From the sequence record OM475427: a DNA stretch of 49,197 bases; one strand, given 5' to 3'. This DNA comes from Escherichia phage D2. Under the pieces are notes generated by a model. That model made no database searches. It had not been told where the DNA came from and saw nothing but the letters and a program-made list of their open reading frames with translations. The translations under genes were made by a program, and so were the position numbers. Below, piece by piece: positions 15,408-48,046 of this stretch; position 1 is the first letter of the stretch; every line of letters begins with the position of its first letter.

Positions 15408-18400
15408 ATGGGTAAAGGAAGCAGTAAGGGGCATACCCCGCGCGAAGCGAAGGACAACCTGAAGTCCACGCAGTTGCTGAGTGTGATCGATGCCATCAGC
15501 GAAGGGCCGATTGAAGGTCCGGTGGATGGCTTAAAAAGCGTGCTGCTGAACAGTACGCCGGTGCTGGACACTGAGGGGAATACCAACATATCCGGTGTCA
15601 CGGTGGTGTTCCGGGCTGGTGAGCAGGAGCAGACTCCGCCGGAGGGATTTGAATCCTCCGGCTCCGAGACGGTGCTGGGTACGGAAGTGAAATATGACAC
15701 GCCGATCACCCGCACCATTACGTCTGCAAACATCGACCGTCTGCGCTTTACCTTCGGTGTACAGGCACTGGTGGAAACCACCTCAAAGGGTGACAGGAAT
15801 CCGTCGGAAGTCCGCCTGCTGGTTCAGATACAACGTAACGGTGGCTGGGTGACGGAAAAAGACATCACCATTAAGGGCAAAACCACCTCGCAGTATCTGG
15901 CCTCGGTGGTGATGGGTAACCTGCCGCCGCGCCCGTTTAATATCCGGATGCGCAGGATGACGCCGGACAGCACCACAGACCAGCTGCAGAACAAAACGCT
16001 CTGGTCGTCATACACTGAAATCATCGATGTGAAACAGTGCTACCCGAACACGGCACTGGTCGGCGTGCAGGTGGACTCGGAGCAGTTCGGCAGCCAGCAG
16101 GTGAGCCGTAATTATCATCTGCGCGGGCGTATTCTGCAGGTGCCGTCGAACTATAACCCGCAGACGCGGCAATACAGCGGTATCTGGGACGGAACGTTTA
16201 AACCGGCATACAGCAACAACATGGCCTGGTGTCTGTGGGATATGCTGACCCATCCGCGCTACGGCATGGGGAAACGTCTTGGTGCGGCGGATGTGGATAA
16301 ATGGGCGCTGTATGTCATCGGCCAGTACTGCGACCAGTCAGTGCCGGACGGCTTTGGCGGCACGGAGCCGCGCATCACCTGTAATGCGTACCTGACCACA
16401 CAGCGTAAGGCGTGGGATGTGCTCAGCGATTTCTGCTCGGCGATGCGCTGTATGCCGGTATGGAACGGGCAGACGCTGACGTTCGTGCAGGACCGACCGT
16501 CGGATAAGACGTGGACCTATAACCGCAGTAATGTGGTGATGCCGGATGATGGCGCGCCGTTCCGCTACAGCTTCAGCGCCCTGAAGGACCGCCATAATGC
16601 CGTTGAGGTGAACTGGATTGACCCGAACAACGGCTGGGAGACGGCGACAGAGCTTGTTGAAGATACGCAGGCCATTGCCCGTTACGGTCGTAATGTTACG
16701 AAGATGGATGCCTTTGGCTGTACCAGCCGGGGGCAGGCACACCGCGCCGGGCTGTGGCTGATTAAAACAGAACTGCTGGAAACGCAGACCGTGGATTTCA
16801 GCGTCGGCGCAGAAGGGCTTCGCCATGTACCGGGCGATGTTATTGAAATCTGCGATGATGACTATGCCGGTATCAGCACCGGTGGTCGTGTGCTGGCGGT
16901 GAACAGCCAGACCCGGACGCTGACGCTCGACCGTGAAATCACGCTGCCATCCTCCGGTACCGCGCTGATAAGCCTGGTTGACGGAAGTGGCAATCCGGTC
17001 AGCGTGGAGGTTCAGTCCGTCACCGACGGCGTGAAGGTAAAAGTGAGCCGTGTTCCTGACGGTGTTGCTGAATACAGCGTATGGGAGCTGAAGCTGCCGA
17101 CGCTGCGCCAGCGACTGTTCCGCTGCGTGAGTATCCGTGAGAACGACGACGGCACGTATGCCATCACCGCCGTGCAGCATGTGCCGGAAAAAGAGGCCAT
17201 CGTGGATAACGGGGCGCACTTTGACGGCGAACAGAGTGGCACGGTGAATGGTGTCACGCCGCCAGCGGTGCAGCACCTGACCGCAGAAGTCACTGCAGAC
17301 AGCGGGGAATATCAGGTGCTGGCGCGATGGGACACACCGAAGGTGGTGAAGGGCGTGAGTTTCCTGCTCCGTCTGACCGTAACAGCGGACGACGGCAGTG
17401 AGCGGCTGGTCAGCACGGCCCGGACGACGGAAACCACATACCGCTTCACGCAACTGGCGCTGGGGAACTACAGGCTGACAGTCCGGGCGGTAAATGCGTG
17501 GGGGCAGCAGGGCGATCCGGCGTCGGTATCGTTCCGGATTGCCGCACCGGCAGCACCGTCGAGGATTGAGCTGACGCCGGGCTATTTTCAGATAACCGCC
17601 ACGCCGCATCTTGCCGTTTATGACCCGACGGTACAGTTTGAGTTCTGGTTCTCGGAAAAGCAGATTGCGGATATCAGACAGGTTGAAACCAGCACGCGTT
17701 ATCTTGGTACGGCGCTGTACTGGATAGCCGCCAGTATCAATATCAAACCGGGCCATGATTATTACTTTTATATCCGCAGTGTGAACACCGTTGGCAAATC
17801 GGCATTCGTGGAGGCCGTCGGTCGGGCGAGCGATGATGCGGAAGGTTACCTGGATTTTTTCAAAGGCAAGATAACCGAATCCCATCTCGGCAAGGAGCTG
17901 CTGGAAAAAGTCGAGCTGACGGAGGATAACGCCAGCAGACTGGAGGAGTTTTCGAAAGAGTGGAAGGATGCCAGTGATAAGTGGAATGCCATGTGGGCTG
18001 TCAAAATTGAGCAGACCAAAGACGGCAAACATTATGTCGCGGGTATTGGCCTCAGCATGGAGGACACGGAGGAAGGCAAACTGAGCCAGTTTCTGGTTGC
18101 CGCCAATCGTATCGCATTTATTGACCCGGCAAACGGGAATGAAACGCCGATGTTTGTGGCGCAGGGCAACCAGATATTCATGAACGACGTGTTCCTGAAG
18201 CGCCTGACGGCCCCCACCATTACCAGCGGCGGCAATCCTCCGGCCTTTTCCCTGACACCGGACGGAAAGCTGACCGCTAAAAATGCGGATATCAGTGGCA
18301 GTGTGAATGCGAACTCCGGGACGCTCAGTAATGTGACGATAGCTGAAAACTGTACGATAAACGGTACGCTGAGGGCGGAAAAAATCGTCGGGGACATTGT

Positions 18401-18797
18401 AAAGGCGGCGAGCGCGGCTTTTCCGCGCCAGCGTGAAAGCAGTGTGGACTGGCCGTCAGGTACCCGTACTGTCACCGTGACCGATGACCATCCTTTTGAT
18501 CGCCAGATAGTGGTGCTTCCGCTGACGTTTCGCGGAAGTAAGCGTACTGTCAGNCCAACAGTCATACTGGTATTCAACCTGTAAGCTGCAGGTGCTGAAG
18601 AACGGACAGGAAATCTTTCAGCAACCCGCGACGGATGTCAGCAGGGTATTTTCATCAGTCATTGATATGCCTNGTGGAGTGCAGGTATACAGATTAATCC
18701 GGCAGCGTCCGTCGTTGTTGATATTGCTTATGAAGGCTCCGGCAGTGGCGACTGGCGTACTGACGGATTCATCGTTGGGGTCGGTTATAAATTCTGA
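15408..18797 (+). CDS. J: Tail tip/host specificity protein J; apparent frameshifts near the 3' end coincide with ambiguous bases
   Basis: 1058-aa ORF 15408-18584 is lambda J-like. Frame moves to +1 near n at 18554 and back near n at 18672; the last segment (..[31 protein letters not shown]) is again in the start frame, and total length is a multiple of 3. Confidence 0.8.
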
Positions 18798-18819
18798 TTA
18801 GCCAGGTAACACAGTGTTA

Positions 18820-18855: not shown

Positions 18856-20793
18856 GTGAATATGGCAGTAAAGATTTCAGGAGTCCTGAAAGACGGCACA
18901 GGAAAACCGGTACAGAACTGCACCATTCAGCTGAAAGCCAGACGTAACAGCACCACGGTGGTGGTGAACACGGTGGGCTCAGAGAATCCGGATGAAGCCG
19001 GGCGTTACAGCATGGATGTGGAGTACGGTCAGTACAGTGTCATCCTGCAGGTTGACGGTTTTCCACCATCGCACGCCGGGACCATCACCGTGTATGAAGA
19101 TTCACAACCGGGGACGCTGAATGATTTTCTCTGTGCCATGACGGAGGATGATGCCCGGCCGGAGGTGCTGCGTCGTCTTGAACTGATGGTGGAAGAGGTG
19201 GCGCGTAACGCGTCCGTGGTGGCACAGAGTACGGCAGACGCGAAGAAATCAGCCGGCGATGCCAGTGCATCAGCTGCTCAGGTCGCGGCCCTTGTGACTG
19301 ATGCAACTGACTCAGCACGCGCCGCCAGCACGTCCGCCGGACAGGCTGCATCGTCAGCTCAGGAAGCGTCCTCCGGCGCAGAAGCGGCATCAGCAACGTC
19401 AGAAGAAGCCTCCGCAGACAGTGAAGAGGCTTCCCGCCGTAATGCAGAGTCAGCCGCTGAAAATGCCGGAGTCGCCACCACAAAAGCGCGGGAGGCCGCA
19501 GCAGACGCAACAAAGGCCGGGCAGAAAAAGGATGAGGCTCTGTCGGCAGCGACACGAGCTGAAAAGGCGGCAGACCGCGCAGAAGCCGCAGCGGAAGTGA
19601 CTGCAGAGCCCTATGCGAATATAGTGCCGCCGCTGCCTGATGTGTGGATACCGTTTAACGATTCACTGGATATGATTGCGGGTTTTTCTCCGGGCTATAA
19701 AAAAATAGCTATTGGTGACGATGTGGTTCAGGTCGCCAGTGATAAACAGGTTAATTTCAGTCGCGCATCAACGGCAACATATATCAACAAATCTGGCGAA
19801 CTGAAAACGGCGGAAATTAATGAGCCGCGATTTGAGTGTGATGGCCTGCTTATTGAGGGACAAAGAACGAACTACATGCTCAATTCGGAAAGTCCAGCCA
19901 GCTGGGGGAAGTCATCAAACATGGATGTGCCCGAAACTGGGACGGATAGTTTTGGTTTTACTTATGGAAAGTTTGTCTGCAACGATTCTCTGGTTGGGCA
20001 AACTTCGGCTATTAATATGGCATCAATTGCTGCAACAAAGTCAGTTGATGTCTCAGGCGATAACAAGTACGTGACAACCTCATGCCGTTTTAAAACAGAA
20101 CGACAGGTAAGGTTACGTATACGGTTTGATAAGTATGATGGTAGTGCAACAACTTTTCTTGGCGATGCGTACATTGATACGCAAACGCTTGAAATTAATA
20201 TGACAGGTGGTGCTGCCGGCAGAATTACGGCACGAGTCAGGAAGGATAAGACCACGGGCTGGATTTTTGCAGAGGCAACGATTCAGGCAATTGATGGTGA
20301 GTTAAAAATAGGCTCTCAGATACAGTATTCTCCTGAGCAGGGTGGGGCAACAGTATCTGGTGACTATATTTATCTTGCCACCCCACAAGTAGAGAATGGG
20401 CCGTGTGTATCATCATTTATTATTTCAGGAGGCAGCGCAACGACAAGAGCCAGTGATTTGGTTAGTATCCCCACCAGAAATAATCTTTATAAGTTACCAT
20501 TTACTTTTTTACTTGAGATTCATAAAAACTGGGATATTGCACCAAACGCCGCACCCCGCGTGTGGGATATAGCAGCCAATACCGGGCAATCAGCAATTGC
20601 AGCAATCAACAGAGGTAGTGGTAAGTTATATATGAGTCTGTCAAACCCTTCAGGCTCGTATGTTAATAGCGCAGCGACAGATGTATTTGCAGAGAAAACC
20701 ACATTTGGATGTATTGCAAAAGCTGATGGTCACTTTCATGTGGTGACAAATGGTAAAGCGGTTAATGAAGTTTATTGTGAATATAATGGGTAA
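18856..20793 (+). CDS. stf: Side tail fiber protein (Stf-like), C-terminus bounded by IS66 inverted repeat
   Basis: N-terminal ~190 aa match lambda Stf (MAVKISGVLKDGTGKPVQNCTIQLKARRNSTTVVVNTVGSENPDEAGRYSMDVEYGQYSVILQVDGF...), then Ala/Ser-rich repeats and a divergent C-terminal domain. The stop codon TAA lies inside the IS terminal repeat (gTAAgcg). Confidence 0.75.
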   Translation: MNMAVKISGVLKDGTGKPVQNCTIQLKARRNSTTVVVNTVGSENPDEAGRYSMDVEYGQYSVILQVDGFPPSHAGTITVYEDSQPGTLNDFLCAMTEDDARPEVLRRLELMVEEVARNASVVAQSTADAKKSAGDASASAAQVAALVTDATDSARAASTSAGQAASSAQEASSGAEAASATSEEASADSEEASRRNAESAAENAGVATTKAREAAADATKAGQKKDEALSAATRAEKAADRAEAAAEVTAEPYANIVPPLPDVWIPFNDSLDMIAGFSPGYKKIAIGDDVVQVASDKQVNFSRASTATYINKSGELKTAEINEPRFECDGLLIEGQRTNYMLNSESPASWGKSSNMDVPETGTDSFGFTYGKFVCNDSLVGQTSAINMASIAATKSVDVSGDNKYVTTSCRFKTERQVRLRIRFDKYDGSATTFLGDAYIDTQTLEINMTGGAAGRITARVRKDKTTGWIFAEATIQAIDGELKIGSQIQYSPEQGGATVSGDYIYLATPQVENGPCVSSFIISGGSATTRASDLVSIPTRNNLYKLPFTFLLEIHKNWDIAPNAAPRVWDIAANTGQSAIAAINRGSGKLYMSLSNPSGSYVNSAATDVFAEKTTFGCIAKADGHFHVVTNGKAVNEVYCEYNG

Positions 20794-20874
20794 GCGTAAA
20801 CTGACCGCCGTATGTAGCCATCAGACGAGAATTGGTAACTTAGACGCCCATCTGATATAGACGGACATCTAAGT

Positions 20875-21300
20875 ATGGAATTACAGGACTGGCGAAAAGA
20901 ACCTCGTAAAAACTATTCGAATGAATTCAAACTTCGTATGGTGGAACTGGCATCACAACCTGGAGCTTGTGTTGCACAGATTGCACGTGAAAATGGCGTC
21001 AATGATAATGTTATTTTCAAATGGCTCAGGCTCTGGCAGAACGAAGGGCGTGTTTCGCGGCGTCTTCCGGTAACGACCTCTTCTGACACTGGCGTTGAAT
21101 TATTACCTGTAGAAATAACGCCGGATGAGCAGAAAGAACCTGTGGCGGCCATTGCGCCGTCTTTATCCACTTCCACTCAGACCAGAGTCAGTGCCAGTTC
21201 CTGCAAGGTGGAATTCCGTCACGGTAACATGACGCTGGAAAATCCATCGCCAGAGCTGCTCACAGTGTTGATCCGTGAACTGACCGGGAGGGGAAGATGA
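20875..21300 (+). CDS. tnpA: IS66 family accessory protein TnpA (orf1)
   Basis: 141 aa; HTH-containing N-terminus (NYSNEFKLRMVELASQPGACVAQIARENGVNDNVIFKWL) typical of IS66 orf1. Confidence 0.85.
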   Translation: MELQDWRKEPRKNYSNEFKLRMVELASQPGACVAQIARENGVNDNVIFKWLRLWQNEGRVSRRLPVTTSSDTGVELLPVEITPDEQKEPVAAIAPSLSTSTQTRVSASSCKVEFRHGNMTLENPSPELLTVLIRELTGRGR

Positions 21301-21647
21301 TCTCACTCCCATCAGGTACCCGTATCTGGCTCGTTGCCGGCGTTACCGATATGCGTAAATCCTTCAACGGACTGGGAGAACAGGTACAACATGTGCTGAA
21401 TGATAATCCCTTCTCCGGTCACCTGTTTATCTTCCGTGGCCGACGGGGTGACACCGTCAAAATTCTTTGGGCTGATGCTGATGGTCTGTGCCTGTTCACC
21501 AAACGCCTGGAGGAAGGCCAGTTTATCTGGCCTGCGGTACGTGACGGCAAGGTATCCATTACCCGCTCGCAACTGGCAATGCTCCTCGATAAGCTGGACT
21601 GGCGTCAGCCAAAAACATCCAGCCGTAACTCACTGACAATGTTGTAA
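21297..21647 (+). CDS. tnpB: IS66 family accessory protein TnpB (orf2)
   Basis: 116 aa; MISLPSGTRIWLVAGVTDMRKSFNGLGEQVQ... characteristic IS66 Orf2; 4-nt overlap with tnpA. Confidence 0.85.
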   Translation: MISLPSGTRIWLVAGVTDMRKSFNGLGEQVQHVLNDNPFSGHLFIFRGRRGDTVKILWADADGLCLFTKRLEEGQFIWPAVRDGKVSITRSQLAMLLDKLDWRQPKTSSRNSLTML

Positions 21648-21677
21648 AAAACTCCTGACCGCATTATAAAAACGGTC

Positions 21678-23277
21678 ATGAGTCAGAAATACCTCATTCG
21701 CATCGCAGAGCTGGAAAGGTTGCTCTCTGAGCAGGCTGAAGCCCTCCGTCAGAAAGACCAGCAACTGAGTCTGGTTGAAGAGACGGAAGCCTTCCTGCGC
21801 TCTGCACTGACACGTGCCGAAGAAAAGATCGAAGAAGATGAACGGGAAATAGAACATCTGCGGGCTCAGATAGAAAAACTGCGCCGGATGCTGTTCGGTA
21901 CCCGTTCTGAAAAACTGCGTCGTGAAGTTGAACTGGCTGAGGCTCTGCTGAAACAACGTGAACAGGACAGCGATCGTTACAGTGGGCGGGAAGACGATCC
22001 TCAGGTTCCCCGCCAGTTGCGACAGTCGCGCCATCGTCGTCCGTTACCGGCACACCTTCCCCGTGAAATACACCGCCTGGAGCCAGAAGAAAGCTGTTGC
22101 CCGGAGTGTGGCGGTGAGCTGGATTATCTGGGGGAAGTCAGCGCTGAACAGCTGGAACTGGTGAGCAGTGCCCTGAAAGTGATCCGCACAGAACGGGTAA
22201 AAAAAGCCTGTACAAAATGTGACTGTATTGTTGAAGCACCGGCGCCGTCCCGCCCGATAGAGCGTGGTATCGCGGGCCCCGGATTACTTGCCCGCGTGTT
22301 AACGGGAAAATACTGCGAACATCTGCCACTGTATCGTCAGAGTGAAATCTTTGCCCGCCAGGGTGTCGAACTGAGCCGGGCCTTACTCTCCAACTGGGTT
22401 GACGCGTGCTGCCAGTTAATGACACCGGTGAATGATGCCCTGTACCGTTATGTAATGAATACCCGCAAGGTTCACACTGATGACACACCGGTAAAGGTAC
22501 TGGCACCGGGTCAGAAAAAGGCGAAAACAGGGCGTATCTGGACGTATGTCCGGGATGATCGCAATGTGGGTTCGTCATCTCCTCCAGCGGTCTGGTTCGC
22601 GTACTCGCCGAACCGGCAGGGGAAACACCCGGAGCAACACCTCCGCCCCTTCCGGGGTATCCTGCAGGCGGATGCGTTCACAGGTTACGACAGGTTGTTC
22701 AGTGCAGAACGTGAAGGTGGTGCACTGACAGAAGTTGCGTGCTGGGCCCATGCCCGGCGAAAAATCCACGATGTATACATCAGCAGCAAAAGTGCGACGG
22801 CAGAAGAAGCCCTGAAGCGAATCAGTGAACTGTACGCCATCGAGGATGAAATACGGGGATTACCGGAGTCAGAGCGTCTTGCGGTCAGGCAGAAGAAGAG
22901 CAAACTGTTACTGGACTCACTGCATGCATGCATGGTGGAGAAAAATGCCACGCTATCCAAAAATCCAGACTGGGAGAATGGTTCAGCTGTGTACTGAATC
23001 AGTGGGGCGCACTCTGTTATTACAGTGTTGACGGTCAGGCGGAGGCAGACATAATGCCGCGGAAAAAGCCCTTTGTGCCATCTGTCTCGGAAATAAAAAC
23101 TTTATGTTCTTCGGCGGCGAGCGCAGTGCACTGTTGTATGGGCTTATCGGCACTTGCCTTCTGAACGNNATNGATCCGGAAGCGTATCTGCGCCATATNC
23201 TGAGCATACTGCCGGAATGGCCCTCCAACCGTGTTGACGAACTCCTGCCATGGAACGTAGTTCTCACCAATAAATAA
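21678..23277 (+). pseudogene. tnpC: IS66 family transposase TnpC, interrupted by two frameshifts
   Basis: Frame 0 ORF 21678-22997 (439 aa, coiled-coil N-terminus, zinc-finger CPECG), continues in another frame (KSRLGEWFSCVLNQWGALCYYSVDGQAEAD) and then a third (NAAEKAL..FMFFGGERSALLYGLIGTCLLN..YLRH.LSILPEWPSNRVDELLPWNVVLTNK*). The shifts at ~22955 and ~23045 are not at n positions. Confidence 0.7.
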
Positions 23278-23442
23278 GCGTCAATACGGTGCTCCGTTGA
23301 CGCTTACTTTAATCCGTTTTCTGAGCTTAGATTTTTCTGTTCCTACCCAGACCGTGGATTTGGAATTCATTTTTTGTCAGGTCAATGCTAATCGTTAAAA
23401 CGGCCATAACGCACCTCCACTGGAAGGTTTATCAGAGGTCGT

Positions 23443-23721
23443 ATGAAAGATTTAACTTTGAAGTTTCATGACAAACTGCAGTTTAAGGCCTTCCTGTCAT
23501 CTCTTGGCTGGGCGGAAGATGAAGACCTCCAGAATAAACTGTTAGTTGATGAAATTGGTTTCACCTACACAGAAACAGGGGTAACAGAAGAGGGAGAACC
23601 TGTCTGTATCCGGAATGATGGTTATTTTGTCAACATTCGCATTCTTGATGACTTGTTTGATGTTTCTGTATTCTCTGATTATGTCGTGGAGCTGGAAACA
23701 CCGCTTCGGGAATGGAGCTGA
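23443..23721 (+). CDS. Hypothetical protein (92 aa)
   Basis: ORF with ATG start between IS66 and sitD; no family recognised. Confidence 0.3.
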   Translation: MKDLTLKFHDKLQFKAFLSSLGWAEDEDLQNKLLVDEIGFTYTETGVTEEGEPVCIRNDGYFVNIRILDDLFDVSVFSDYVVELETPLREWS

Positions 23722-23733
23722 AAGGAGGAAATA

Positions 23734-24027
23734 ATGGATATAAGCCCCTTACTTCATGCACTTTGTGCTGTGGCTGCGCAGATACTGGTTGGTCTTTTTA
23801 CCGGAAACTGGGCTTACGGAGCGATAGCCGGTTGTACGTTCTTCATTGCGCGTGAACATACCCAGGCAGAATATCGCTGGATTGAAATGTTCGGGCATGG
23901 CAAGCGAATGAATATGCCGTGGTGGGGCGGTTTTGATCCGCGAGCTTGGGATGTGGCAAGCCTGATGGATTTTGCTGTGCCGGTGGTGGCGTGTCTGCTG
24001 GTCTGGCTGTTGGTTAATCGTGGGTGA
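23734..24027 (+). CDS. Hypothetical membrane protein (97 aa)
   Basis: ORF with hydrophobic segments; preceded by GGAGG-like RBS (aaaggaggaaataATG); no family recognised. Confidence 0.3.
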   Translation: MDISPLLHALCAVAAQILVGLFTGNWAYGAIAGCTFFIAREHTQAEYRWIEMFGHGKRMNMPWWGGFDPRAWDVASLMDFAVPVVACLLVWLLVNRG

Positions 24028-24119
24028 AAAAAGGTGANCTGNANATNGCAACGGAGGAAGAAACCNCGTTGCTGGAAGCCNGGAANAAGTATCGGGTGTT
24101 GCTGNNCTCGGATGTTGTG

Positions 24120-24977
24120 CTAATTGGGTGATAACAGATCCTGTGTATGGGAGTTTCCCTTTTTGCGTGCGTTGATGCTGGTAACGGCAAACGTCATGAT
24201 GAACAAAACCGCGAATAAGACGACAATCGTCGGAGCTGGTGCGCTGTCGATAAAAAAGGACAACCAGACACCAGTCATTGACACTATTACCGATATGCCA
24301 GTCGCCAGTAGGAGCGCAATATGAAAGCGTTGTGTCAGGAGTACCGCAATGGCGCCAGGCGCAATGAGCAGAGAAATGGAGAGAATGATACCTACCGCTT
24401 TCAGCGTCGCCACAATGGTCAGAGAGACCATGCACAGCAGCCCATAATGCAGCCATCTCGTATGCAAACCGCTTACCTGCGCCTGTTGATAATCAAAGCT
24501 GAACAGCAAAAAATCCCGCCATTTTACGCTAATAACAAGTGTAACCAGCCCGGCAATAANCATCGTCTGGATTATATCGCCGATGGTTATCCCGAGCATG
24601 TCGCCGAANAGAATATGGTCAAGATGTNCGTCTGGTTTGACTGCAATATACAAGATCAGANCTGCGGCAAACATGCCAGANAANACNATCCCCATCACTG
24701 TATCTTGCTTGATTCGGCTGTTGTCTTTCAGGTATCCCGTCGCCACCGCGCAGAATACTCCGGCGACGAATGCCCCTGTAGCCAAAGGTAACCCCAGAAT
24801 CCAGGCAAGCACGATGCCAGGAAAAACCGCATGACTCATCGCGTCACCCATCAGTGCCCAACCTTTCAGGACCAGAAAGACCGACAGCAGCGCACAGGGT
24901 ATGGAAACTACCAGTGAAATCAGCAGTGCGTGACTCATAAAGGTGAACTGCAGTGGCTCCAGTAATAATGCCATCAT
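24120..24977 (-). CDS. sitD: Mn/Fe ABC transporter permease SitD (contains ambiguous bases)
   Basis: 285-aa polytopic membrane protein, paralogous to the upstream permease; several n/X positions. Confidence 0.85.
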   Translation of the reverse strand: MMALLLEPLQFTFMSHALLISLVVSIPCALLSVFLVLKGWALMGDAMSHAVFPGIVLAWILGLPLATGAFVAGVFCAVATGYLKDNSRIKQDTVMGXXXSGMFAAXLILYIAVKPDXHLDHIXFGDMLGITIGDIIQTMXIAGLVTLVISVKWRDFLLFSFDYQQAQVSGLHTRWLHYGLLCMVSLTIVATLKAVGIILSISLLIAPGAIAVLLTQRFHIALLLATGISVIVSMTGVWLSFFIDSAPAPTIVVLFAVLFIMTFAVTSINARKKGNSHTQDLLSPN

Positions 24978-25831
24978 GAGCGATCCTCCAGCGCCTTATG
25001 CGCACGCCGACGATTTGCCAAAAGCCCATGGGTGGGCGCAAAGACAAATGCTAAAAGAAACAGCAGTGTCTGCGCCACCACGATGATTCCACCTGTCGCG
25101 CCGTCCAGAAAGTAACTGACCCACGCGCCGAGGAAACTGGTTACACTGCCAATAGTTACAGCAATCATGAGCAGGCGGGGAAAACGATCGGTTAACAACC
25201 ATGCTGTTGCACCGGGAGTCACCACCAGACAGATCACCAGAAAGGCACCAACCGTTTGCAGCGCCGCAACGGTCGAAACCGACAGCAGGGTGAAGAAGAG
25301 GAGTTTTAATCTGCCCGGATGCAATCCAATAGCACGGGCGTGATTCTCGTCGAAAAAGGTCACCATAAGATCTTTCCATTTGAAAAAAAGCACGATGATC
25401 GAGAGAATGCCAATGATAGTGAGTTGCAGGATATCCGCCGGATCGATTGCCAGAATATTGCCCAGGACGATGGTCTGAATGTTCACAGATGTCGGGTTCA
25501 ATGACACCATAAACAGCCCCAGGCCAAAAAAGGACGAGAAGATCAGACCGATGATGGCATCTTCTTTTAAGCGGGTGCGTTGGTTAAGAAACAGCATGCT
25601 GCCCGCAGCCAGTCCGCCGGAAAAGAAGGCTCCCAGAGAAAACGGAAGCCCCAGCATATATGCCCCCGCAACACCCGGGACAATAGAGTGCGACAACGCA
25701 TCGCCAATCAGCGACCAGCCTTTTAGCATCAGATAGCATGACAGGAAAGCGCAGAGACCGCCGACCATCGCCGAGACCCACATCGCATTGAGCATATATT
25801 CATAGCTGAAGGGTTCCAGTAGCACGTTCAT
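24974..25831 (-). CDS. sitC: Mn/Fe ABC transporter permease SitC
   Basis: 285 aa, ABC-3 family permease; 4-nt overlaps with sitB and sitD. Confidence 0.9.
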
Positions 25832-26655
25832 CTTTCTTCCCTCTGCACCGCTGACGGTCGATGAGCCACAAAAGGGCGTTCATCGTCAGTAATAATGCTT
25901 TCTTCCGAGCCGTTAAGTGTGACATGGCGCAGTACGCCGCTAAAAGCCAGCTCTAGGTTCTCGGCTGTAAAAGTGGTGTCTGTCGGCCCGCTTGCCAGGA
26001 CGGTGCCTTTGACCATGACCGTATAATCGCAAAATGTCGTGACGGATCCGAGATTGTGTGTTGAGACAAGCATCGTTTTGCCTTCCGCGCGTAACTCCCT
26101 CAACAGGCTGATGATTTTGGCTTCGGTTTTCACATCAACGCCAGTAAAAGGTTCATCCAGCAGGATCACATCACCCTGCTGTGCAATCGCTCTCGCCAGA
26201 AAGACGCGTTTCTTTTGTCCACCGGAAAGCTCGCCGATTTGTCGATGGCGAAAATTCACCATATCGACACGTTCCAGCGCATCGGTGACAATTTGACGAT
26301 CCCTCTTTTTGGCGATACGCAACATACCCATATGCCCATAGCGGCCCATCATCACCACATCTTCCACCAGTACAGGAAATGACCAGTCAACCTCTTCTGA
26401 CTGAGGGACGTAGGCAACCAGGTTTTTCTGTAACGCCTGTCGCGTGGGAATACCCAGAACAGATATCTTTCCGCTGGTCAGACGCACAAATCCCATAATC
26501 GCTTTAAACAACGTCGATTTTCCGGAACCGTTTACCCCAACCAGAGCGGCAATAGATCCACTTGGTACTGTGAAGGATGCATCGCGCAGTGCTGTGTGCC
26601 CGTTATGCCAGGTGACAGCAACATCATTAACGACAATGCCTGCAGATTGCATCAT
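25828..26655 (-). CDS. sitB: Mn/Fe ABC transporter ATP-binding protein SitB
   Basis: Walker [13 protein letters not shown] signature LSGGQKKR, Walker B ILLDEP. Confidence 0.9.
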
Positions 26656-27569
26656 TATTTCTCCCTTTTCCCGGCTTTAATTCCCTGTACCAGCGTACTG
26701 GTAGTAACCTTAAGAAGGTCGATATACGTCGGTACCGGGCCGTTTTCTGTGCTCAGGGAATCGACATAGAGCACACCGCCGTAGTGTGCGCCGGTTTCAC
26801 GCGCAACCTGACGCGCTGGTTTATCGGAAATCGTACTCTCGCTAAAGACTGCCGGGATATGATTTTTCTTAACTATATCAACAACCTTACGTACCTGCTG
26901 CGGTGTTCCTTGTTGATCGGCATTAATCGGCCACAGATAAAGCTCTTTTAGCCCCAAATCGCGTGCGAGATAAGAAAAAGCCCCTTCACTGGTGACCATC
27001 CATCGCTGATTCTCAGGGAGTTCCGTAATCTGCTTACGCAGGGGGGCAAGGGTTTGGGTAATCTTGGCTTTATAAGTATCGGCATTGCGTTGGTAGGTTT
27101 GTGCATTTGCCGGATCGTATTTTATCAACGCATCACGAATATTATCGACGTAAATCAGAGCATTATCTGGCGACATCCATGCATGGGGGTTAGGTTTGCC
27201 CTCATAGGGTCCTTCGGTGATCCCTACAGGCGTCACACCCGAAGAGACAATTACTTCTGGAACCCCATTGAGATGCTGGTAAAAGCGTTGGAACCACAAT
27301 TCCAGATTCATACCATTGGCGAGAATCAGTTGTGCCCCCTGCGCACGTTTAATATCGCCAGGGGTAGGCTGATACTCATGAATTTCTGCACCAGGCTTGG
27401 TTATGGATGAGACTTCTGCAGCATCTCCCGCCACGTTTTTGGCCATATCCGCGATGATGGTAAATGTTGTAATGACCTTAAATTTTTCAGTTGCACTTGC
27501 CTGAAATGCGATCGAGCAGGTGAGTGCGAGGCCCCCCAAGAGCATGGTTACTTTTTTTATTGAGCGCAT
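26655..27569 (-). CDS. sitA: Periplasmic Mn/Fe-binding protein SitA
   Basis: 304 aa with signal peptide; cluster-9 metal-binding protein, first gene of a sitABCD-type operon. Confidence 0.9.
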
Positions 27570-28002: not shown

Positions 28003-28366
28003 AAATTATATCAAGTACGAACAAACTTAGTGACAAAAGACTACGAAAAATATAAAACAATTTTAGTATTAAGTAGAGAGAAATTTCGTTCTGCTAGGAC
28101 GCAGCAATAGGTTCATGAGATTCTCTGATACTTGTTACCTTAGTAAGCCTTAAATTTTTAAAAATTCTTTTACGTCCACTCCTCGCTCATAACAGGCATT
28201 AACTACATTTATCTTCATTGGCTATGCAAGTCGTAATAAAAGGTGGGACAAAACTGAGACACATAAGCTCTCACAAAGGTCTGCAAGGCCTCACATGTAT
28301 TGAGATGTTAATAAAATGTAGACTTGTAATTTTGATATAAATGGTAGATAAAACCTTTCCCCACCC

Positions 28367-28647
28367 CTGGTGCAAACATCGGTGACGAATGCGCCCTGTT
28401 TGAAGCCACCCACGGTACTGCGCCGAAATATGCCGGTCAGGACAAAGTAAATCCTGGCTCTATTATTCTCTCCGCTGAGATGATGCTGCGCCATATGGGT
28501 TGGACTGAAGCGGCTGACCTGATTGTTAAAGGTATGGAAGGCGCAATCAATGCCAAGACCGTAACTTATGACTTCGAACGTCTGATGGAAGGCGCTAAGC
28601 TGCTGAAATGTTNCGAGTTTGGCGACGCGATCATCAAGAACATGTAA
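28367..28647 (+). pseudogene. icd: 3' fragment of icd (isocitrate dehydrogenase), last ~93 codons, at the phage attachment site
   Basis: Translation [92 protein letters not shown] matches the Icd C-terminus; upstream sequence is unrelated to icd. Confidence 0.85.
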
Positions 28648-28698: not shown

Positions 28699-28753
28699 AT
28701 GATGATGTAAAATCTTCCCCAAAACTTTCCCCAAAACNNNNNNTGGCTATTTT

Positions 28754-33484: not shown

Positions 33485-33549
33485 TCTTTGGGACTCCTGG
33501 CTGATTANNTNTNNNNAANGNGTTTCCATCCGTCACGTAATTTACGCAT
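33451..33549 (-). CDS. cIII: cIII-like protein (N-terminally different from lambda; interrupted by n bases; boundaries approximate)
   Basis: Minus-strand ATG preceded by AGGAG, reading MRKLRDGWK..., matching the lambda cIII core (ITRKLRDGWKRLIDILNQ). An n run (33508-33521) interrupts the reading. Confidence 0.45.
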
Positions 33550-39180: not shown

Positions 39181-39198
39181 TTGGGGGAGAGGGAAGTC

Positions 39199-39537
39199 AT
39201 GAAAAAACTAACCTTTGAAATTCGATCTCCAGCACATCAGCAAAACGCTATTCACGCAGTACAGCAAATCCTTCCAGACCCAACCAAACCATTATGGCCA
39301 TCTGTTGGTACAATTATTTGTTATTGTGCATCATTCTGGTTATTAGCTCAGACGCTGGCTTATATACCTACAGGGATTGCTTATGCTATCTGGTCAGGAG
39401 TCGGTATTGTCCTGATTAGCTTACTATCATGGGGATTTTTCGGCCAACGGTTGGACCTGCCAGCCATTATAGGCATGATGTTGATTTGTGCCGGTGTGTT
39501 GGTTATTAATTTATTGTCACGAAGCACACCACATTAA
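39199..39537 (+). pseudogene. In-frame fusion of ninB 5' end (32 codons) to emrE 3' end (about 80 codons)
   Basis: MKKLTFEIRSPAHQQNAIHAVQQILPDPTKP (lambda NinB N-terminus) joined to WPSVGTIICYCASFWLLAQTLAYIPTGIAYAIWSGVGIVLISLLSWGFFGQRLDLPAIIGMMLICAGVLVINLLSRSTPH (EmrE from about residue 31); lacks EmrE TM1. Confidence 0.7.
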
Positions 39538-39792: not shown

Positions 39793-41319
39793 ATGAAAAA
39801 AGCCATAGCATATATGCGATTTTCATCACCAGGTCAGATGTCTGGTGATTCATTAAACCGCCAGAGAAGGCTTATTACTGAATGGCTAAAGGTAAATAGT
39901 GATTATTACCTTGATACCGTAACGTATGAAGATTTGGGGTTAAGCGCATTCAATGGAAAGCATGCACAATCAGGAGCTTTTTCGGAATTTTTAGATGCTA
40001 TAGAACATGGTTACATATTGCCAGGGACTACATTGTTAGTTGAAAGTCTGGACAGACTTTCAAGAGAAAAAGTCGGTGAAGCGATTGAGCGTCTGAAATT
40101 GATTTTGAATCACGGTATTGATGTTATAACTCTTTGCGATAATACAGTCTATAATATAGACTCATTGAATGAGCCATATTCATTAATAAAAGCCATACTT
40201 ATAGCACAAAGGGCAAATGAAGAAAGCGAGATAAAGTCAAGTCGGGTTAAATTATCATGGAAGAAAAAACGGCAGGATGCACTGGAATCAGGCACGATTA
40301 TGACGGCGTCTTGTCCGAGATGGCTCTCATTGGATGACAAAAGAACAGCTTTTATTCCAGACCCCGACAGGGTGAAAACGATTGAGCTAATTTTTAAACT
40401 CAGGATGGAAAGGCGATCATTGAATGCAATAGCTAAGTATTTAAATGATCATGCTGTAAAAAATTTTTCAGGAAAAGAAAGTGCATGGGGGCCTTCTGTA
40501 ATTGAAAAATTATTAGCGAATAAAGCTCTGATAGGTATATGCGTACCTTCATATCGTGCAAGAGGGAAAGGGATAAGTGAAATCGCTGGCTATTATCCCA
40601 GAGTCATATCAGATGATTTGTTTTACGCTGTACAGGAAATTCGGTTGGCACCTTTTGGTATTAGCAATAGTAGCAAGAATCCTATGCTAATAAATCTACT
40701 TCGAACAGTTATGAAGTGTGAGGCTTGTGGTAATACCATGATTGTTCATGCGGTATCTGGACGTTTGCATGGCTATTATGTTTGTCCGATGAGAAGATTA
40801 CATCGATGTGACAGGCCATCAATAAAAAGAGATTTGGTTGATTATAATATCATTAATGAATTGCTTTTTAATTGTAGCAAAATTCAACCAGTTGAAAACA
40901 AGAAAGATGCTAATGAAACTTTAGAGTTAAAAATTATTGAGCTTCAGATGAAAATTAATAATTTAATCGTTGCATTGTCTGTCGCGCCTGAAGTTACCGC
41001 TATAGCAGAGAAAATAAGACTATTAGATAAGGAATTACGAAGGGCTTCGGTATCATTAAAAACTTTGAAGAGTAAAGGGGTGAGTTCACTTGGTGATTTT
41101 CATGCTATTGATTTAACCAGTAAAAATGGGCGAGAGCTATGTCGTACACTTGCCTATAAAATATTCGAAAAAATTATAATTAATACAGATAATAAAACCT
41201 GTGATATCTATTTTATGAATGGCATTGTTTTTAAACACTATCCTTTAATGAAAGTAATATCCGCCCAGCAGGCGATAAGTACTCTTAAATATATGGTTGA
41301 TGGTGAGGTTTATTTTTGA
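39793..41319 (+). CDS. ybcK: Large serine recombinase (DLP12 YbcK-like)
   Basis: 508 aa; N-terminal resolvase/invertase catalytic domain (AYMRFSSPGQ..SLNRQ) and large C-terminal recombinase/zinc-ribbon domain; AT-rich. Confidence 0.85.
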   Translation: MKKAIAYMRFSSPGQMSGDSLNRQRRLITEWLKVNSDYYLDTVTYEDLGLSAFNGKHAQSGAFSEFLDAIEHGYILPGTTLLVESLDRLSREKVGEAIERLKLILNHGIDVITLCDNTVYNIDSLNEPYSLIKAILIAQRANEESEIKSSRVKLSWKKKRQDALESGTIMTASCPRWLSLDDKRTAFIPDPDRVKTIELIFKLRMERRSLNAIAKYLNDHAVKNFSGKESAWGPSVIEKLLANKALIGICVPSYRARGKGISEIAGYYPRVISDDLFYAVQEIRLAPFGISNSSKNPMLINLLRTVMKCEACGNTMIVHAVSGRLHGYYVCPMRRLHRCDRPSIKRDLVDYNIINELLFNCSKIQPVENKKDANETLELKIIELQMKINNLIVALSVAPEVTAIAEKIRLLDKELRRASVSLKTLKSKGVSSLGDFHAIDLTSKNGRELCRTLAYKIFEKIIINTDNKTCDIYFMNGIVFKHYPLMKVISAQQAISTLKYMVDGEVYF

Positions 41320-41643: not shown

Positions 41644-41670
41644 AGCCCGCATAAGTGCGGGCTGCTTTTT
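41644..41670 (+). terminator. Rho-independent terminator between convergent ybcK and esterase genes
   Basis: Hairpin AGCCCGC-ATAAGT-GCGGGCT followed by GCTTTTT. Confidence 0.45.
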
Positions 41671-42712
41671 ACAGGTCAGCGTTTGTTTTTTGTTGTTGGG
41701 TAGCGGTTTTTATGGGGGTTCCCAGGTTTTTAGTAAACCACTCAACAACTCTGTTTATAATAATTGGCTGATACCATGTATTATCGCCATGCTCGGCCCC
41801 TTCTACCAGCACGTACTCAGCGTTATCACCGTTCTTCTTCAACATCCTGAATAGTTTGGCGCTTTGCTCAGGTGAAACCAGAGTGTCTTTGCTACCATGC
41901 ATAATAAGAAATGGGGGTTTTACTCCTTTCATATGTCCGATTGGACTGGCGTTTAGCGCTTTTTCTTTTGACGCTGTGATGGGGGCTCCCGCAAAATTTC
42001 TGAATGCAGGGCCATTGATCATTAAGGCTTCGGTTACGGCAGGAGAGCGATGAACCTCCTGCACTGATTCAGGGAACCCCTCGCCAATATTCAACAAGTC
42101 AGAAATCCCATAAAGTGTGGCAACTGCCTGAACATCTGAGGATTGCTGAAGAAAGTCACCTTTATCAAAGGTTTTGTCACCATTTGTAGTTCCCATCATC
42201 TGGGCAAGCCATCCACCGGCAGAGTCACCCAGAACTCCGATTCTTTGAGGATCAATCCCATAATTGCTGGCATGCTCTCTCAGGTAACGTATTGCAGCTT
42301 TTCCATCCTCAACTGGTGCTGGAAATGTATCAGGAATTGTTCTGTATTCTACAGCGGCCACAACAAAACCAGCTTCTGCCAGAGCCATTCTCATTTCAAT
42401 AAATTTGTCATGTTCAGAAGACATGAATCCGCCGCCGGGATAATAAATAATGGCTGGTTTTAAATCATTTGTTCGCGGGACAAGAACTGACATGTGAAGC
42501 TGTCTGACAGAACGAGTTCCTTTTATCTGGGAATAAACAACATCACCAATGAGATCGACCTGGTTTCTGGTCGGTGAAACACTAATGATATCTGCACCCG
42601 GGGTGTAACCAGGAAGATTAGTCTGGACAGGTGTTGCACAACTCCCGACCGACATGGCCATTGACATACCATACAATAGTGTTGCAGATGATAATATCTT
42701 GTTAATTTTCAT
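41669..42712 (-). CDS. Secreted alpha/beta-hydrolase (esterase/lipase-like), probable lipoprotein
   Basis: Signal peptide with lipobox-like SVGSC; HGG-type oxyanion motif (YYPGGGF); nucleophile elbow GDSAGG; C-terminal HG (GAEHGD). Confidence 0.7.
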   Translation of the reverse strand: MKINKILSSATLLYGMSMAMSVGSCATPVQTNLPGYTPGADIISVSPTRNQVDLIGDVVYSQIKGTRSVRQLHMSVLVPRTNDLKPAIIYYPGGGFMSSEHDKFIEMRMALAEAGFVVAAVEYRTIPDTFPAPVEDGKAAIRYLREHASNYGIDPQRIGVLGDSAGGWLAQMMGTTNGDKTFDKGDFLQQSSDVQAVATLYGISDLLNIGEGFPESVQEVHRSPAVTEALMINGPAFRNFAGAPITASKEKALNASPIGHMKGVKPPFLIMHGSKDTLVSPEQSAKLFRMLKKNGDNAEYVLVEGAEHGDNTWYQPIIINRVVEWFTKNLGTPIKTATQQQKTNADL

Positions 42713-45221: not shown

Positions 45222-46304
45222 TTAGAACTGATAAACCAGACCTACAGCGACGATGTCGTCGGTATCAATACCAGCTGTTTTGGTAAACTTACTATCGTCA
45301 ATTAAGTTGATTTTGTAATCAACAAAAGTGGACATGTTTTTATTAAAGTAGTAAGTAGCACCGACATCGACATACTTGACTAAGTCTCGGTCACCATGAA
45401 CACCAAGGTCTTTACCTTTTGACTGAAGGTAAGCAACAGATGGTCGCAGACCGAAGTCAAACTGATATTGTGCTACTGCTTCAAAGTTTTGTGCTTTGTT
45501 TGCAATATGGTTATTACCAAAAACGGTCATATTCTGAGTTTCAGAATATGTGGTAGCCAGATAGATATTGTTCGCATCATATTTCAGGCCTGCAGCCCAT
45601 ACTTCCGCATTTTTGCCGGAGGCATTGAATTTGCTCTTACCATAGGCGACCTGACCGTCAGTGCGATCTGATTTAGCATAGGTTGCACCCACGCCGAATC
45701 CTTCATACTCATAAGTAGTGGAGAAACCGAAACCATCACCATTGACTTCAGTTACGTCAGTGCGGTCATTTTTACCCTGATACTGAGCAGCAAAGTTCAG
45801 GCCATCGACCAGACCAAAGAAGTCGTTGTTACGATAAGTTGCAACACCAGTAGTGCGACCAGTCATGAACACATCTGTTTGGGTCCAGGTATCACCACCG
45901 AATTCTGGCAGGACGTCAGTCCACGCACCGATGTCGTATGCTACACCGTAGTTACGGCCGTAATCGATTGAGCCGTAATCACCAAATTTCAGGCCTGCAA
46001 ATGCAAGACGGGTTTTGTCTTTGGAAGAACCTTGAGATTCAGCACGGTTGCCTTTGAATTCATATTCCCACTGACCGAAACCAGTCAGTTGATCGTTGAT
46101 TTGGGTTTCACCTTTGAAGCCAAGACGGGCATAAGTAGTATCACCATCATCTGCATCATTAGAGGAGAAGTAGTGCTTGGCATTAACTTTCCCGTATAGA
46201 TCCAGCTTGTTACTGTCTTTATTATAAATTTCAGCTGCCTGAGCAGACATCGCCATCAGTACTGATGCAGCTACAGCAGAAATTGCCACTGTTAATTTTT
46301 TCAT
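45222..46304 (-). CDS. nmpC: Outer membrane general porin (NmpC/OmpD/OmpC family), apparently intact
   Basis: 360 aa; signal peptide ending AQA; mature N-terminus AEIYNKD..KLDLYGK; C-terminal VGLVYQF with terminal Phe. Confidence 0.85.
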
Positions 46305-47113: not shown

Positions 47114-47606
47114 ATGACTCAAGACTATGAACTGGTTGTGAAAGGAGTCCGGTGGGGCTGTTGCCATAGCGTCTGTGCTCATCACTGGTCCGAGTGGTGA
47201 CGATGGCCTGGAAGGTGTCAGCTACATACCATACAAAGATATCGTTGGCGTATGGACTGTATGTCACGGACACACCGGAAAAGACATCATGCTCGGTAAA
47301 ACGTATACCGAAGCAGAATGCAAAGCCCTCCTGAATAAAGACCTTGCCACTGTCGCCAGACAAATTAACCCGTACATCAAAGTCGATATACCGGAAACAA
47401 CGCGCGGCGCTCTTTGCAGCAGATTAAGGAGCGTGGCGCTTTANCNNNNNNTNNATCGTGGTGATATCCGTCAGGCAATCGACCGTTGCAGCAATATCTG
47501 GGCTTCACTGCCGGGCGCTGGTTATGGTCAGTTCGAGCATAAGGCTGACAGCCTGATTGCAAAATTCAAAGAAGCGGGCGGAACGGTCAGAGAGATTGAT
47601 GTATGA
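47114..47606 (+). pseudogene. R: Endolysin, chimeric: P21-type lysozyme 5' part joined out of frame to lambda R transglycosylase 3' part
   Basis: Frame 0 (47175-~47405) encodes SAR-lysozyme-like [79 protein letters not shown]. From ~47411 another frame reads [10 protein letters not shown]; after an n run, [49 protein letters not shown] (lambda R C-terminus). The 5' ATG at 47114 is in yet another frame. Confidence 0.6.
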
Positions 47607-48046
47607 GCAGAGTCACCGCGATTATCTCCGCTCTGGTTATCTGCATCATCGTCTGCCTGTCATGGGCTGTTAATCATTACCGTGATAACGCCATTACCTA
47701 CAAAGCCCAGCGCGACAAAAATGCCAGAGAACTGAAGCTGGCGAACGCGGCAATTACTGACATGCAGATGCGTCAGCGTGATGTTGCTGCGCTCGATGCA
47801 AAATACACGAAGGAGTTAGCTGATGCTAAAGCTGAAAATGATGCTCTGCGTGANNNNNTTNCCGCTGGTCGTCGTCGGTTGCACATCAAAGCAGTCACCG
47901 CCGCCTCCGGCGTGGATGATGGTGCCAGCCCCAGACTTACTGACACCGCTCAACGGGATTATTTCGTTCTCAGAGAGCGCATCGAAACCGTAACTAACCA
48001 ATTGAATGGTCTGCAAGAGTATGTGAGATCACAGTGTTCATATTAG
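47603..48046 (+). CDS. Rz: Spanin inner-membrane subunit Rz (i-spanin)
   Basis: [83 protein letters not shown]... matches lambda Rz; n run at 47845-47852. Confidence 0.85.
47823..47993 (+). CDS. Rz1: Spanin outer-membrane lipoprotein Rz1 (o-spanin), embedded in Rz in the +1 frame
   Basis: Embedded [13 protein letters not shown]...[43 protein letters not shown]: lipobox (VVGC) and proline-rich mature region. Confidence 0.7.

What the first reader, a model, noticed from the sequence alone, without database searches (positions are those of the whole stretch)
20780..23320. IS66-family element inserted at the 3' end of the side tail fiber gene with no target-site duplication, adjoining the sit island
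The stf stop codon is supplied by the IS terminal inverted repeat (gTAAgcg), so the native stf 3' end and any tfa gene are probably missing. The 8 bp flanking the two IS ends differ (tataatgg / tttaatcc), arguing against simple transposition and for an IS-mediated deletion or recombination that joined the tail fiber gene to the sitABCD region. tnpC carries two frameshifts not associated with n bases, so this copy may be non-autonomous.
Basis: seen in the sequence. Interest (0 to 1): 0.6.

Follow-up and report, generated by a model that had tools for sequence, protein, structure and literature searches.

The report
ISEc23 in phage tail-fibre gene
This is an ordinary, already catalogued insertion sequence (ISEc23) sitting in the side-tail-fibre gene of a phage-21-like coliphage that carries sitABCD. 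The odd features (no target duplication, broken transposase) come from about 550 bases of E. coli C host chromosome spliced into this record, most likely an assembly error.

Summary
An IS66-family element occupies window 20790-23307, its left inverted repeat supplies the stf stop codon, the 8-bp flanks differ, and tnpC has two frameshifts.

The interpretation does not hold.
- The element is ISEc23.
- The same insertion occurs in 124 complete E. coli genomes, five phage records (4A7, 4C10, 1W, 3W) and an IMG/VR contig. All eight copies I read base by base have a perfect 8-bp duplication, TATAATGG.
- Phage 21, ev207, ev017 and Perceval show the empty site, with the same order stf-orf92-orf97-sitDCBA. 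So the stf-sit adjacency predates the IS and nothing was deleted. The insertion only cuts off the last 43 of 686 Stf codons.

In this window alone, 22883-23433 is replaced.
- 22883-23167 matches one E. coli C chromosomal IS66 remnant at 285/285.
- 23200-23433 matches a second E. coli C remnant plus its flank at 234/234.
- The four n's in between fall exactly on the positions where the two remnants differ.
- Both frameshifts lie in the first piece.
- A third E. coli C piece (icd, 249/249) sits at 28364-28612.

The foreign junctions occur in no other sequence searched. The most likely cause is host DNA merged into the consensus. Real recombination is a minor rival. Interest is low.

The parts
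18865..20793 (+). Truncated side tail fibre gene stf (642 codons from the ATG used in the 4A7 annotation; a GTG at 18856 is an alternative start). Ends ...EVYCEYNG followed by a TAA from the IS.
   Evidence: ORF list. Pfam phage_tail_N, E=6.5e-75. Alignment to the 686-aa phage 21 Stf shows that the last 43 aa are cut off.
20782..20789 (+). Left copy of the 8-bp target site TATAATGG
   Evidence: Single copy in the phage 21 empty site; duplicated on both sides of the IS in all relatives read.
20790..22882 (+). Authentic ISEc23 portion: left repeat 20790-20813, tnpA 20875-21300, tnpB 21297-21647, and the 5' 1205 nt of tnpC from 21678
   Evidence: No differences from the RefSeq-annotated ISEc23 in E. 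coli SE15 or from phage 4A7. Pfam domains.
22883..23167 (+). Foreign piece A: tnpC 3' region replaced by the IS66 remnant found next to cobU in E. coli C. It carries both -1 frameshifts and the 12-nt deletion.
   Evidence: 285/285 identical to NZ_CP020543.1 1837056-1837340. Only about 86% identical to ISEc23. The remnant is annotated 'frameshifted; incomplete' in E. coli C and ATCC 11775.
23168..23199 (+). Switch zone between pieces A and B, with n at 23168, 23169, 23172 and 23199
   Evidence: These four n's are exactly the four positions in this zone where the two E. coli C remnants differ (AC/GT, T/C, C/T).
23200..23433 (+). Foreign piece B: right end of the IS66 remnant next to tmaR/yeeX in the CP4-44 region (to 23307, including the right repeat 23284-23307), plus 126 nt of its own chromosomal flank (23308-23433). 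This occupies the place of the second TATAATGG and the stf tail.
   Evidence: 234/234 identical to the E. coli C yeeX-side locus. Also identical in K-12 MG1655. The overlapping stretch 23230-23433 is 100% identical in the listed hits, and 3212 genomes cover at least 80% of it.
23434..23446 (+). Last 13 nt of the native stf 3' end, including its TGA (23444-23446), which overlaps the orf92 ATG. Phage sequence resumes here.
   Evidence: Identity to SE15 and 4A7 resumes at 23434. Only 2 nt (AG) are shared at the junction.
23443..24027 (+). orf92 (23443-23721) and orf97 (23734-24027): conserved small genes between stf and sitD, function unknown
   Evidence: Present in the same place in IS-free phage 21. 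They match phrog_1361 and phrog_1443, both of unknown function, and have no Pfam hit.
24120..27569 (-). sitDCBA iron/manganese ABC transporter moron
   Evidence: ORFs. Annotated in SE15, 4A7 and phage 21.
28364..28612 (+). A second host-derived stretch in the same record: E. coli C icd sequence replacing about 122 nt of phage DNA upstream of the phage's icd' copy. It ends at an n (28613).
   Evidence: 249/249 identical to E. coli C icd, against 96.7% to the icd of a B2 lysogen. No record among 5426 genomes covers the query spanning junction 28363|28364.

Best explanation
The window is a complete genome of about 49 kb from a phage-21-like, icd-integrating lambdoid coliphage. It is co-linear with Escherichia phage 4A7 and starts at the same base.

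Shown:
- An ancestor acquired ISEc23 (IS66 family) by ordinary transposition into the stf gene. The insertion duplicated the 8-bp target TATAATGG and split off the last 43 codons, which lie in a region with a weak, below-cutoff resemblance to a ConA-like lectin domain.
- The sitABCD moron was already downstream of stf before that event.
- This insertion allele is widespread in B2 E. coli prophages (SE15 and 123 other complete genomes). Phages 4A7 and 4C10 carry it and appear to belong to the plaque-purified set of Mathieu et al., although the paper's main text does not name them.
- In this one record, the last 425 nt of the IS and the following 126 nt are written over by two pieces of E. coli C chromosome. 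These are two degenerate IS66 remnants, from loci about 14 kb apart, that share homology with the ISEc23 3' end. A third E. coli C piece (icd) overwrites phage sequence next to the phage's icd' copy.

Inferred: these pieces are host-DNA reads or contigs from an E. coli C type propagation or lysogen host. They were recruited through shared repeats and merged into the phage consensus. On this reading the missing target duplication, the lost stf tail and the tnpC frameshifts are artefacts of the record, not biology.
For: IS identity and simple transposition:
- Window 19800-22882 is identical to SE15, where the element is annotated as ISEc23.
- 124 complete genomes and 5 phage records cover the same stf::ISEc23-orf92 stretch.
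- TATAATGG lies on both sides in L001, L006, L007, L009, L010 and L011. Other ISEc23 copies also have perfect 8-bp duplications (GACATTAT, TTATTAAC), which confirms where the ends lie.
- The empty site, with a single TATAATGG and an intact 686-aa Stf followed by orf92-orf97-sitDCBA, is present in phage 21. Searches point the same way for ev207, ev017, Perceval and PhiR63_2.

The patch is host DNA:
- 22883-23167 is 285/285 identical to the E. coli C cobU-side remnant.
- 23200-23433 is 234/234 identical to the E. coli C yeeX-side remnant plus flank.
- In the E. coli C record these two loci are about 14 kb apart and in opposite orientation.
- K-12 MG1655 lacks the first remnant in the 20 kb around cobU.

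Signs of a consensus artefact:
- The four n's fall exactly on the positions that discriminate the two remnants.
- Each host piece takes over close to where its homology to the phage begins.
- The right junction shares only 2 nt.
- Replaced and replacing lengths are nearly equal: 126 vs 128 nt at the IS, and 120 vs 122 nt at icd.
- The icd piece is 249/249 identical to E. coli C and ends at an n.
- The right-junction 32-mer is absent from IMG/VR, JGI metagenomes and GTDB genomes. No complete E. coli genome or phage record covers either foreign junction.
- The record carries other clusters of low-quality n's.
Against: - No reads are available, so the artefact is inferred, not shown.
- I could not name the pipeline that would produce such length-neutral splices. 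An assembler normally needs overlap to join the yeeX flank to orf92.
- The phage encodes Exo/Bet-type recombinases (annotated in 4A7 and Ecol_448), which can recombine short, diverged homologies. A real crossover inside the IS is therefore conceivable.
- Apart from n's, the host pieces are error-free, so they are not simply bad base calls.
- The rest of the window differs from 4A7 in many mosaic patches that look natural. The window is therefore not merely 4A7 with noise.
Confidence: 0.8

Rival explanations
1. Real recombinant. While growing on, or lysogenising, an E. coli C type host, the phage's ISEc23 3' end recombined with the host's IS66 remnants (homeologous crossover near 22883). An illegitimate join at 23433|23434 then captured 126 nt of CP4-44 flank and deleted the stf tail. 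Separately, aberrant excision captured 120 nt of host icd.
For: - The host pieces are exact E. coli C sequence.
- The stretch from 28364 rightwards reads like an attL junction of an E. coli C lysogen.
- The phage carries exo/bet/gam.
- Lambdoid phages are known to form transducing variants by aberrant excision (established knowledge).
Against: - It needs at least three junctions at the IS (ISEc23 x cobU-side remnant, cobU-side x yeeX-side remnant from a locus 14 kb away in inverted orientation, and yeeX flank x stf with 2 nt of homology), plus another illegitimate junction at icd.
- Both replacements are length-neutral to within 2 nt.
- The n's sit exactly on the positions that discriminate the paralogues, which signals mixed reads, not a clonal recombinant.
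- The junctions are seen nowhere else.
Confidence: 0.12
2. One reading: an IS66-mediated adjacent deletion, or recombination between two IS copies, removed the stf 3' end and a tfa gene and fused stf to a sit island.
For: In this window the flanks differ, and the stf tail is absent.
Against: - IS-free relatives have the same stf-orf92-orf97-sitDCBA order, so nothing between stf and sit is missing.
- All sequence from 23434 onward is co-linear with relatives.
- The right flank is 126 nt of an unrelated chromosomal locus followed by a return to the expected phage sequence. A deletion cannot produce that.
- All other copies of this insertion that I read have the duplication.
Confidence: 0.03
3. 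The target duplication and tnpC decayed by point mutation in this lineage (an old, degenerating IS copy).
For: The two 8-mers share 5 of 8 bases. tnpC has frameshifts.
Against: - The IS is 100% identical to active-looking ISEc23 up to 22882, then switches abruptly to 100% identity with another locus.
- The right flank is identical over 126 nt to the CP4-44 flank and is not a mutated stf tail.
Confidence: 0.01

Closest known systems
ISEc23 (IS66 family), as annotated by RefSeq/PGAP in E. coli SE15 (ECSF_RS05810-05820) and 123 other complete genomes
   Same: Same element, same insertion site in stf, same orientation. Identical sequence over 20790-22882, including the left repeat, tnpA, tnpB and the 5' part of tnpC.
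   Different: In the window the last 425 nt (2518 bp in total, against 2532 bp) come from other IS66-family remnants. tnpC is frameshifted, and the right-hand TATAATGG is absent.
Escherichia phage 4A7 / Lambda_4C10 (Bievrevirus; LR595864.1, LR595861.1), and phages 1W and 3W
   Same: Whole-genome co-linearity, and the same first base as 4A7. Same stf::ISEc23, orf92, orf97, sitDCBA, icd', attP and int.
   Different: The window differs in many mosaic patches (about 96% identity over the left arm). It also carries three E. coli C-derived stretches and scattered n's that these records lack.
Phage 21 (OL657228.1), ev207, ev017, Perceval
   Same: Same tail-fibre / sit / icd-attP architecture. They represent the uninterrupted target site.
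   Different: No IS. Stf is intact at 686 aa (read directly in phage 21).
Laboratory lambda (PaPa), which carries an stf frameshift (established knowledge, not tested here)
   Same: A lambdoid phage that remains plaque-forming with a disrupted side tail fibre gene. The stf::ISEc23 phages 4A7 and 4C10 appear to be plaque-purified isolates of the Mathieu study.
   Different: The disruption there is a 1-bp frameshift, not an IS insertion.

Membership tests
IS66 family insertion sequence | Three-gene organisation tnpA-tnpB-tnpC, with an IS66 Orf2 (TnpB_IS66) protein and a DDE_Tnp_IS66 transposase | tested here: met
   Pfam: HTH_Tnp_1 (tnpA); TnpB_IS66, E=1.1e-36; DDE_Tnp_IS66, E=1.8e-72; plus zf-IS66 and LZ_Tnp_IS66
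IS66 family insertion sequence | Imperfect terminal inverted repeats beginning GTAAGCG | tested here: met
   24-nt repeats at 20790-20813 and 23284-23307, 83% complementary. The right repeat in the window belongs to the foreign remnant, but it is identical to the ISEc23 right repeat over its last 45 nt.
IS66 family insertion sequence | 8-bp target-site duplication | tested here: not met
   The window has tataatgg / tttaatcc. The feature is met (TATAATGG on both sides) in all eight relatives' copies read, and in two other ISEc23 copies. The failure in the window is due to the foreign patch.
IS66 family insertion sequence | Intact transposase ORF (autonomous copy) | tested here: not met
   The window's tnpC is split over three frames. 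The 4A7 and SE15 copies encode an intact 537-aa TnpC.
ISEc23 specifically | Near-identity to the reference element | tested here: met
   No mismatches to the PGAP-annotated ISEc23 of SE15 over 20790-22882. About 86% identity beyond that point.
Phage-21-like icd-integrating lambdoid phages carrying sitABCD | Gene order J-stf-orf92-orf97-sitDCBA-icd'-attP-int | tested here: met
   Co-linear with phage 21 and 4A7
IS-mediated adjacent deletion | Loss of sequence between the IS end and a distal point, relative to IS-free relatives | tested here: not met
   All genes downstream of stf in phage 21 are present and co-linear from 23434 onward. Only a length-neutral replacement is seen.

The most novel reading that the evidence does not exclude
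The patch is real. Through the 3' end of its resident ISEc23, a temperate coliphage recombined with degenerate IS66 remnants in the chromosome of a new host (E. coli C type) and captured flanking host DNA. At attL it also picked up host icd sequence by imprecise excision. A phage-borne IS would then act as a portable homology handle for capturing host DNA.
Probability: 0.1. Interest if true: 0.45.

Novelty: already known. Interest (0 to 1): 0.1.

Why it matters
Biologically it matters little. stf::ISEc23 in the sit-carrying icd prophage is a common, already annotated allele in the 124 complete E. coli genomes found here (SE15 among them). It arose by textbook transposition.

The practical value is as a caution. 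An apparent 'IS without target duplication plus decayed transposase' can be produced when host-chromosome paralogues of a repeat are merged into a phage assembly. Here, n's at the positions that discriminate the paralogues, together with exact matches to an indicator-strain genome, give the artefact away.

Whoever curates this record should treat 22883-23433 and 28364-28612 as suspect.

Tried and rejected
- I tested whether the n's in sitD (24038-24106, 24560-24687) mark a collapsed second sit copy, such as a ColV-type plasmid sit. Only 1 of 41 polymorphic sites coincides with an n, so these are plain low-quality calls.
- I looked for a single genome holding the whole patch 22883-23433 contiguously. 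There is none among 5426 complete E. coli genomes; the best hits are two-piece matches at 89-91%.
- I tested K-12 MG1655 as the sole source of the patch. It has the yeeX-side remnant. It lacks the cobU-side remnant in the 20 kb around cobU.
- I looked for a closer overall relative of the window. Nothing exceeds about 96.7% over the left arm in phages or complete genomes.
- I searched for the right junction in IMG/VR, JGI metagenomes and GTDB genomes, with no hits.
- My first guess at the E. coli C icd coordinates was wrong. I found the gene by walking along the chromosome.
- The literature searches found no paper describing this IS insertion. Mathieu et al. 2020 describe sitABCD as a lambda moron but do not mention the IS or the phage names in the main text.
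- I considered that all mosaic patches relative to 4A7 might be mapping artefacts. I rejected this as unproven, because most are 70-90% identical homologous alleles typical of lambdoid mosaicism.
Full report
**1. What is there**

The element occupies window 20790-23307 (2518 bp). Its imperfect inverted repeats are 24 nt long and begin GTAAGCG.

It encodes three genes:
- tnpA, 20875-21300 (HTH_Tnp_1)
- tnpB, 21297-21647 (TnpB_IS66)
- tnpC, from 21678 (LZ_Tnp_IS66, zf-IS66, DDE_Tnp_IS66)

The upstream ORF (18856/18865-20793) has the prophage tail-fibre N-terminal domain. It ends in a TAA formed by bases 2-4 of the left repeat. The 8 nt outside the ends are tataatgg and tttaatcc. tnpC runs through three frames because of two -1 shifts, and it also has a 12-nt deletion.

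**2. Identity and context**

The window is a whole lambdoid phage genome. It runs terminase, head, tail, J, stf, IS, orf92, orf97, sitDCBA, icd', attP, int, early genes and lysis genes. It is co-linear with Escherichia phage 4A7 and begins at the same base.

The IS is ISEc23. Window 19800-22882 shows no difference from E. coli SE15, where PGAP annotates the element as ISEc23. The same stf::ISEc23-orf92 stretch is covered in 124 complete E. coli genomes and five phage records. Two IMG/VR contigs carry the left junction.

Mathieu et al. 2020 purified their sequenced temperate phages on the indicator strains MG1655 hsdR or E. coli C (PMC6969025). The main text does not name 4A7 or 4C10, but their names and record series suggest they belong to that set. 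If so, phages with this insertion form plaques.

**3. The insertion was ordinary transposition, and nothing was deleted**

Phage 21 carries the empty site...GTGAATATAATGGTGTGACC..., inside an intact 686-aa stf. That gene is followed by the same orf92, orf97 and sitDCBA. ev207, ev017, Perceval and PhiR63_2 match the two flanks contiguously without the IS.

In SE15, Ecol_448, 4A7, 4C10 and an IMG/VR contig, the IS is flanked on both sides by TATAATGG. The remaining 43 stf codons follow (VTADKNIRF...RQLKEVV), with a TGA that overlaps the orf92 ATG. Two unrelated ISEc23 copies also have perfect 8-bp duplications, which confirms where the ends lie.

So the stf-sit adjacency predates the IS, and no tfa-like gene has been lost relative to intact relatives. 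orf92 and orf97 belong to PHROG families of unknown function.

The intact Stf C-terminus (residues 560-681) gives a weak Laminin_G_3 / ConA-like match that falls below the Pfam cut-off. The insertion at residue 643 probably breaks the distal domain, but this is an inference.

**4. Why this window lacks the duplication**

Against SE15 and 4A7, the window is identical up to 22882 and again from 23434. In between it diverges sharply. The divergent stretch has three parts:

| Window | Content | Evidence |
|---|---|---|
| 22883-23167 | 285/285 identical to a degenerate IS66 remnant beside cobU in E. coli C | |
| 23168-23199 | 32-nt switch zone with four n's | |
| 23200-23433 | 234/234 identical to a second remnant beside tmaR/yeeX (CP4-44 region) of E. 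coli C, plus 126 nt of its own flank | |

- The first remnant is annotated 'frameshifted; incomplete' in E. coli C. Both -1 shifts and the 12-nt deletion of the window's tnpC are features of this remnant.
- The four n's fall exactly on the four positions in the switch zone where the two remnants differ.
- The second remnant and flank are also identical in K-12. For the overlapping stretch 23230-23433, 3212 genomes cover at least 80% and the listed hits are 100% identical.
- In the E. coli C record the two loci lie about 14 kb apart, in opposite orientation.
- The patch rejoins phage sequence at 23433|23434 with 2 nt of shared sequence. It replaces 128 nt with 126 nt.

**5. A second case in the same record**

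Window 28364-28612 is 249/249 identical to E. coli C icd. It is only 96.7% identical to the icd of a B2 lysogen. It replaces about 122 nt of phage DNA upstream of the phage's icd' copy, begins at a junction with no homology, and ends at an n.

Neither foreign junction is present in any of 5426 complete E. coli genomes. The IS right junction is also absent from the phage collection, IMG/VR, JGI metagenomes and GTDB genomes.

**6. Interpretation**

Three exact E. coli C segments each start where host and phage share a repeat (IS66 homology or the icd duplication). Each overhangs about 120-126 nt into non-homologous sequence. The two replacements are length-neutral to within 2 nt, and n's mark the switch points. 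This pattern fits host-derived reads or contigs merged into a phage consensus. The source could be an E. coli C type propagation host, or lysogens in the lysate.

The record shows other clusters of low-quality n's. J also appears broken next to n's.

A real recombinant cannot be excluded without reads. It would need at least four junctions, two of them illegitimate, two coincidences of length, and n's that happen to fall on the paralogue-discriminating sites. I put the artefact at about 0.8 and real recombination at about 0.1.

**7. Comparison with the known, and verdict**

The element is a member of the IS66 family and is specifically ISEc23. The two family features that fail here (the 8-bp duplication and an intact transposase) fail only inside the foreign patch. 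Both are met in every other copy of the same insertion that I read.

The proposed IS-mediated deletion is not supported. The feature is already known and annotated, and the anomaly is most likely an artefact of the record. Interest is low.

Noticed in passing
window 28364-28612 (junction 28363|28364; n at 28613): 249 nt identical to the E. coli C icd gene replace phage sequence upstream of the phage's icd' copy. From 28364 rightwards the sequence reads like the attL junction of an E. coli C lysogen. No record among 5426 complete genomes covers the left junction.
   Followed up: yes
window 28700-28743: The attP region has two CTTCCCCAAAA-type subsites followed by a run of six n's. 4A7 has three subsites, so the repeat number is uncertain in this record.
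   Followed up: partly
window 15408-18806 (n at 18554 and 18673): The tail-tip gene J ends prematurely at 18584 (1058 aa, against 1132 aa in 4A7), within a divergent receptor-binding patch (about 72% identity to 4A7) flanked by n's. This is either a sequencing error or a different, broken J allele.
   Followed up: partly
window 1-49197: The window is a complete phage genome that starts at exactly the same base as phage 4A7, inside the small terminase gene. Yet it differs from 4A7 in about 15 length-preserving mosaic patches. Several n clusters lie within about 40 nt of patch boundaries (18554, 18673, 33508-33521, 47444-47454, 47854-47861, 48688-48691). This hints at a reference-ordered or merged consensus.
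   Followed up: partly
window 24038-24106 and 24560-24687: Two clusters of isolated n's (9 and 7) lie in the orf97-sitD spacer and the start of sitD, and within sitD. They do not coincide with differences from plasmid-borne sit alleles, so they look like plain low-quality base calls.
   Followed up: yes
window 39181-39537, 39793-41319, 41669-42712, 45222-46304: Further moron-like cargo, named from the 4A7 and Ecol_448 annotations: an EmrE-type SMR efflux gene, a ybcK recombinase, an alpha/beta hydrolase and an OmpC/OmpD/NmpC-type porin.
   Followed up: no
L015 11996-12338 and L016 5169-5306 (E. coli C); L005 2420-2578 (K-12): Two degenerate IS66-family right-end remnants bracket the CP4-44 / cobU region in E. 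coli C, in inverted orientation. K-12 MG1655 keeps only the yeeX-side one. For window 23230-23433, which spans that remnant's last 78 nt and its 126-nt flank, 3212 complete genomes cover at least 80% of the stretch.
   Followed up: partly
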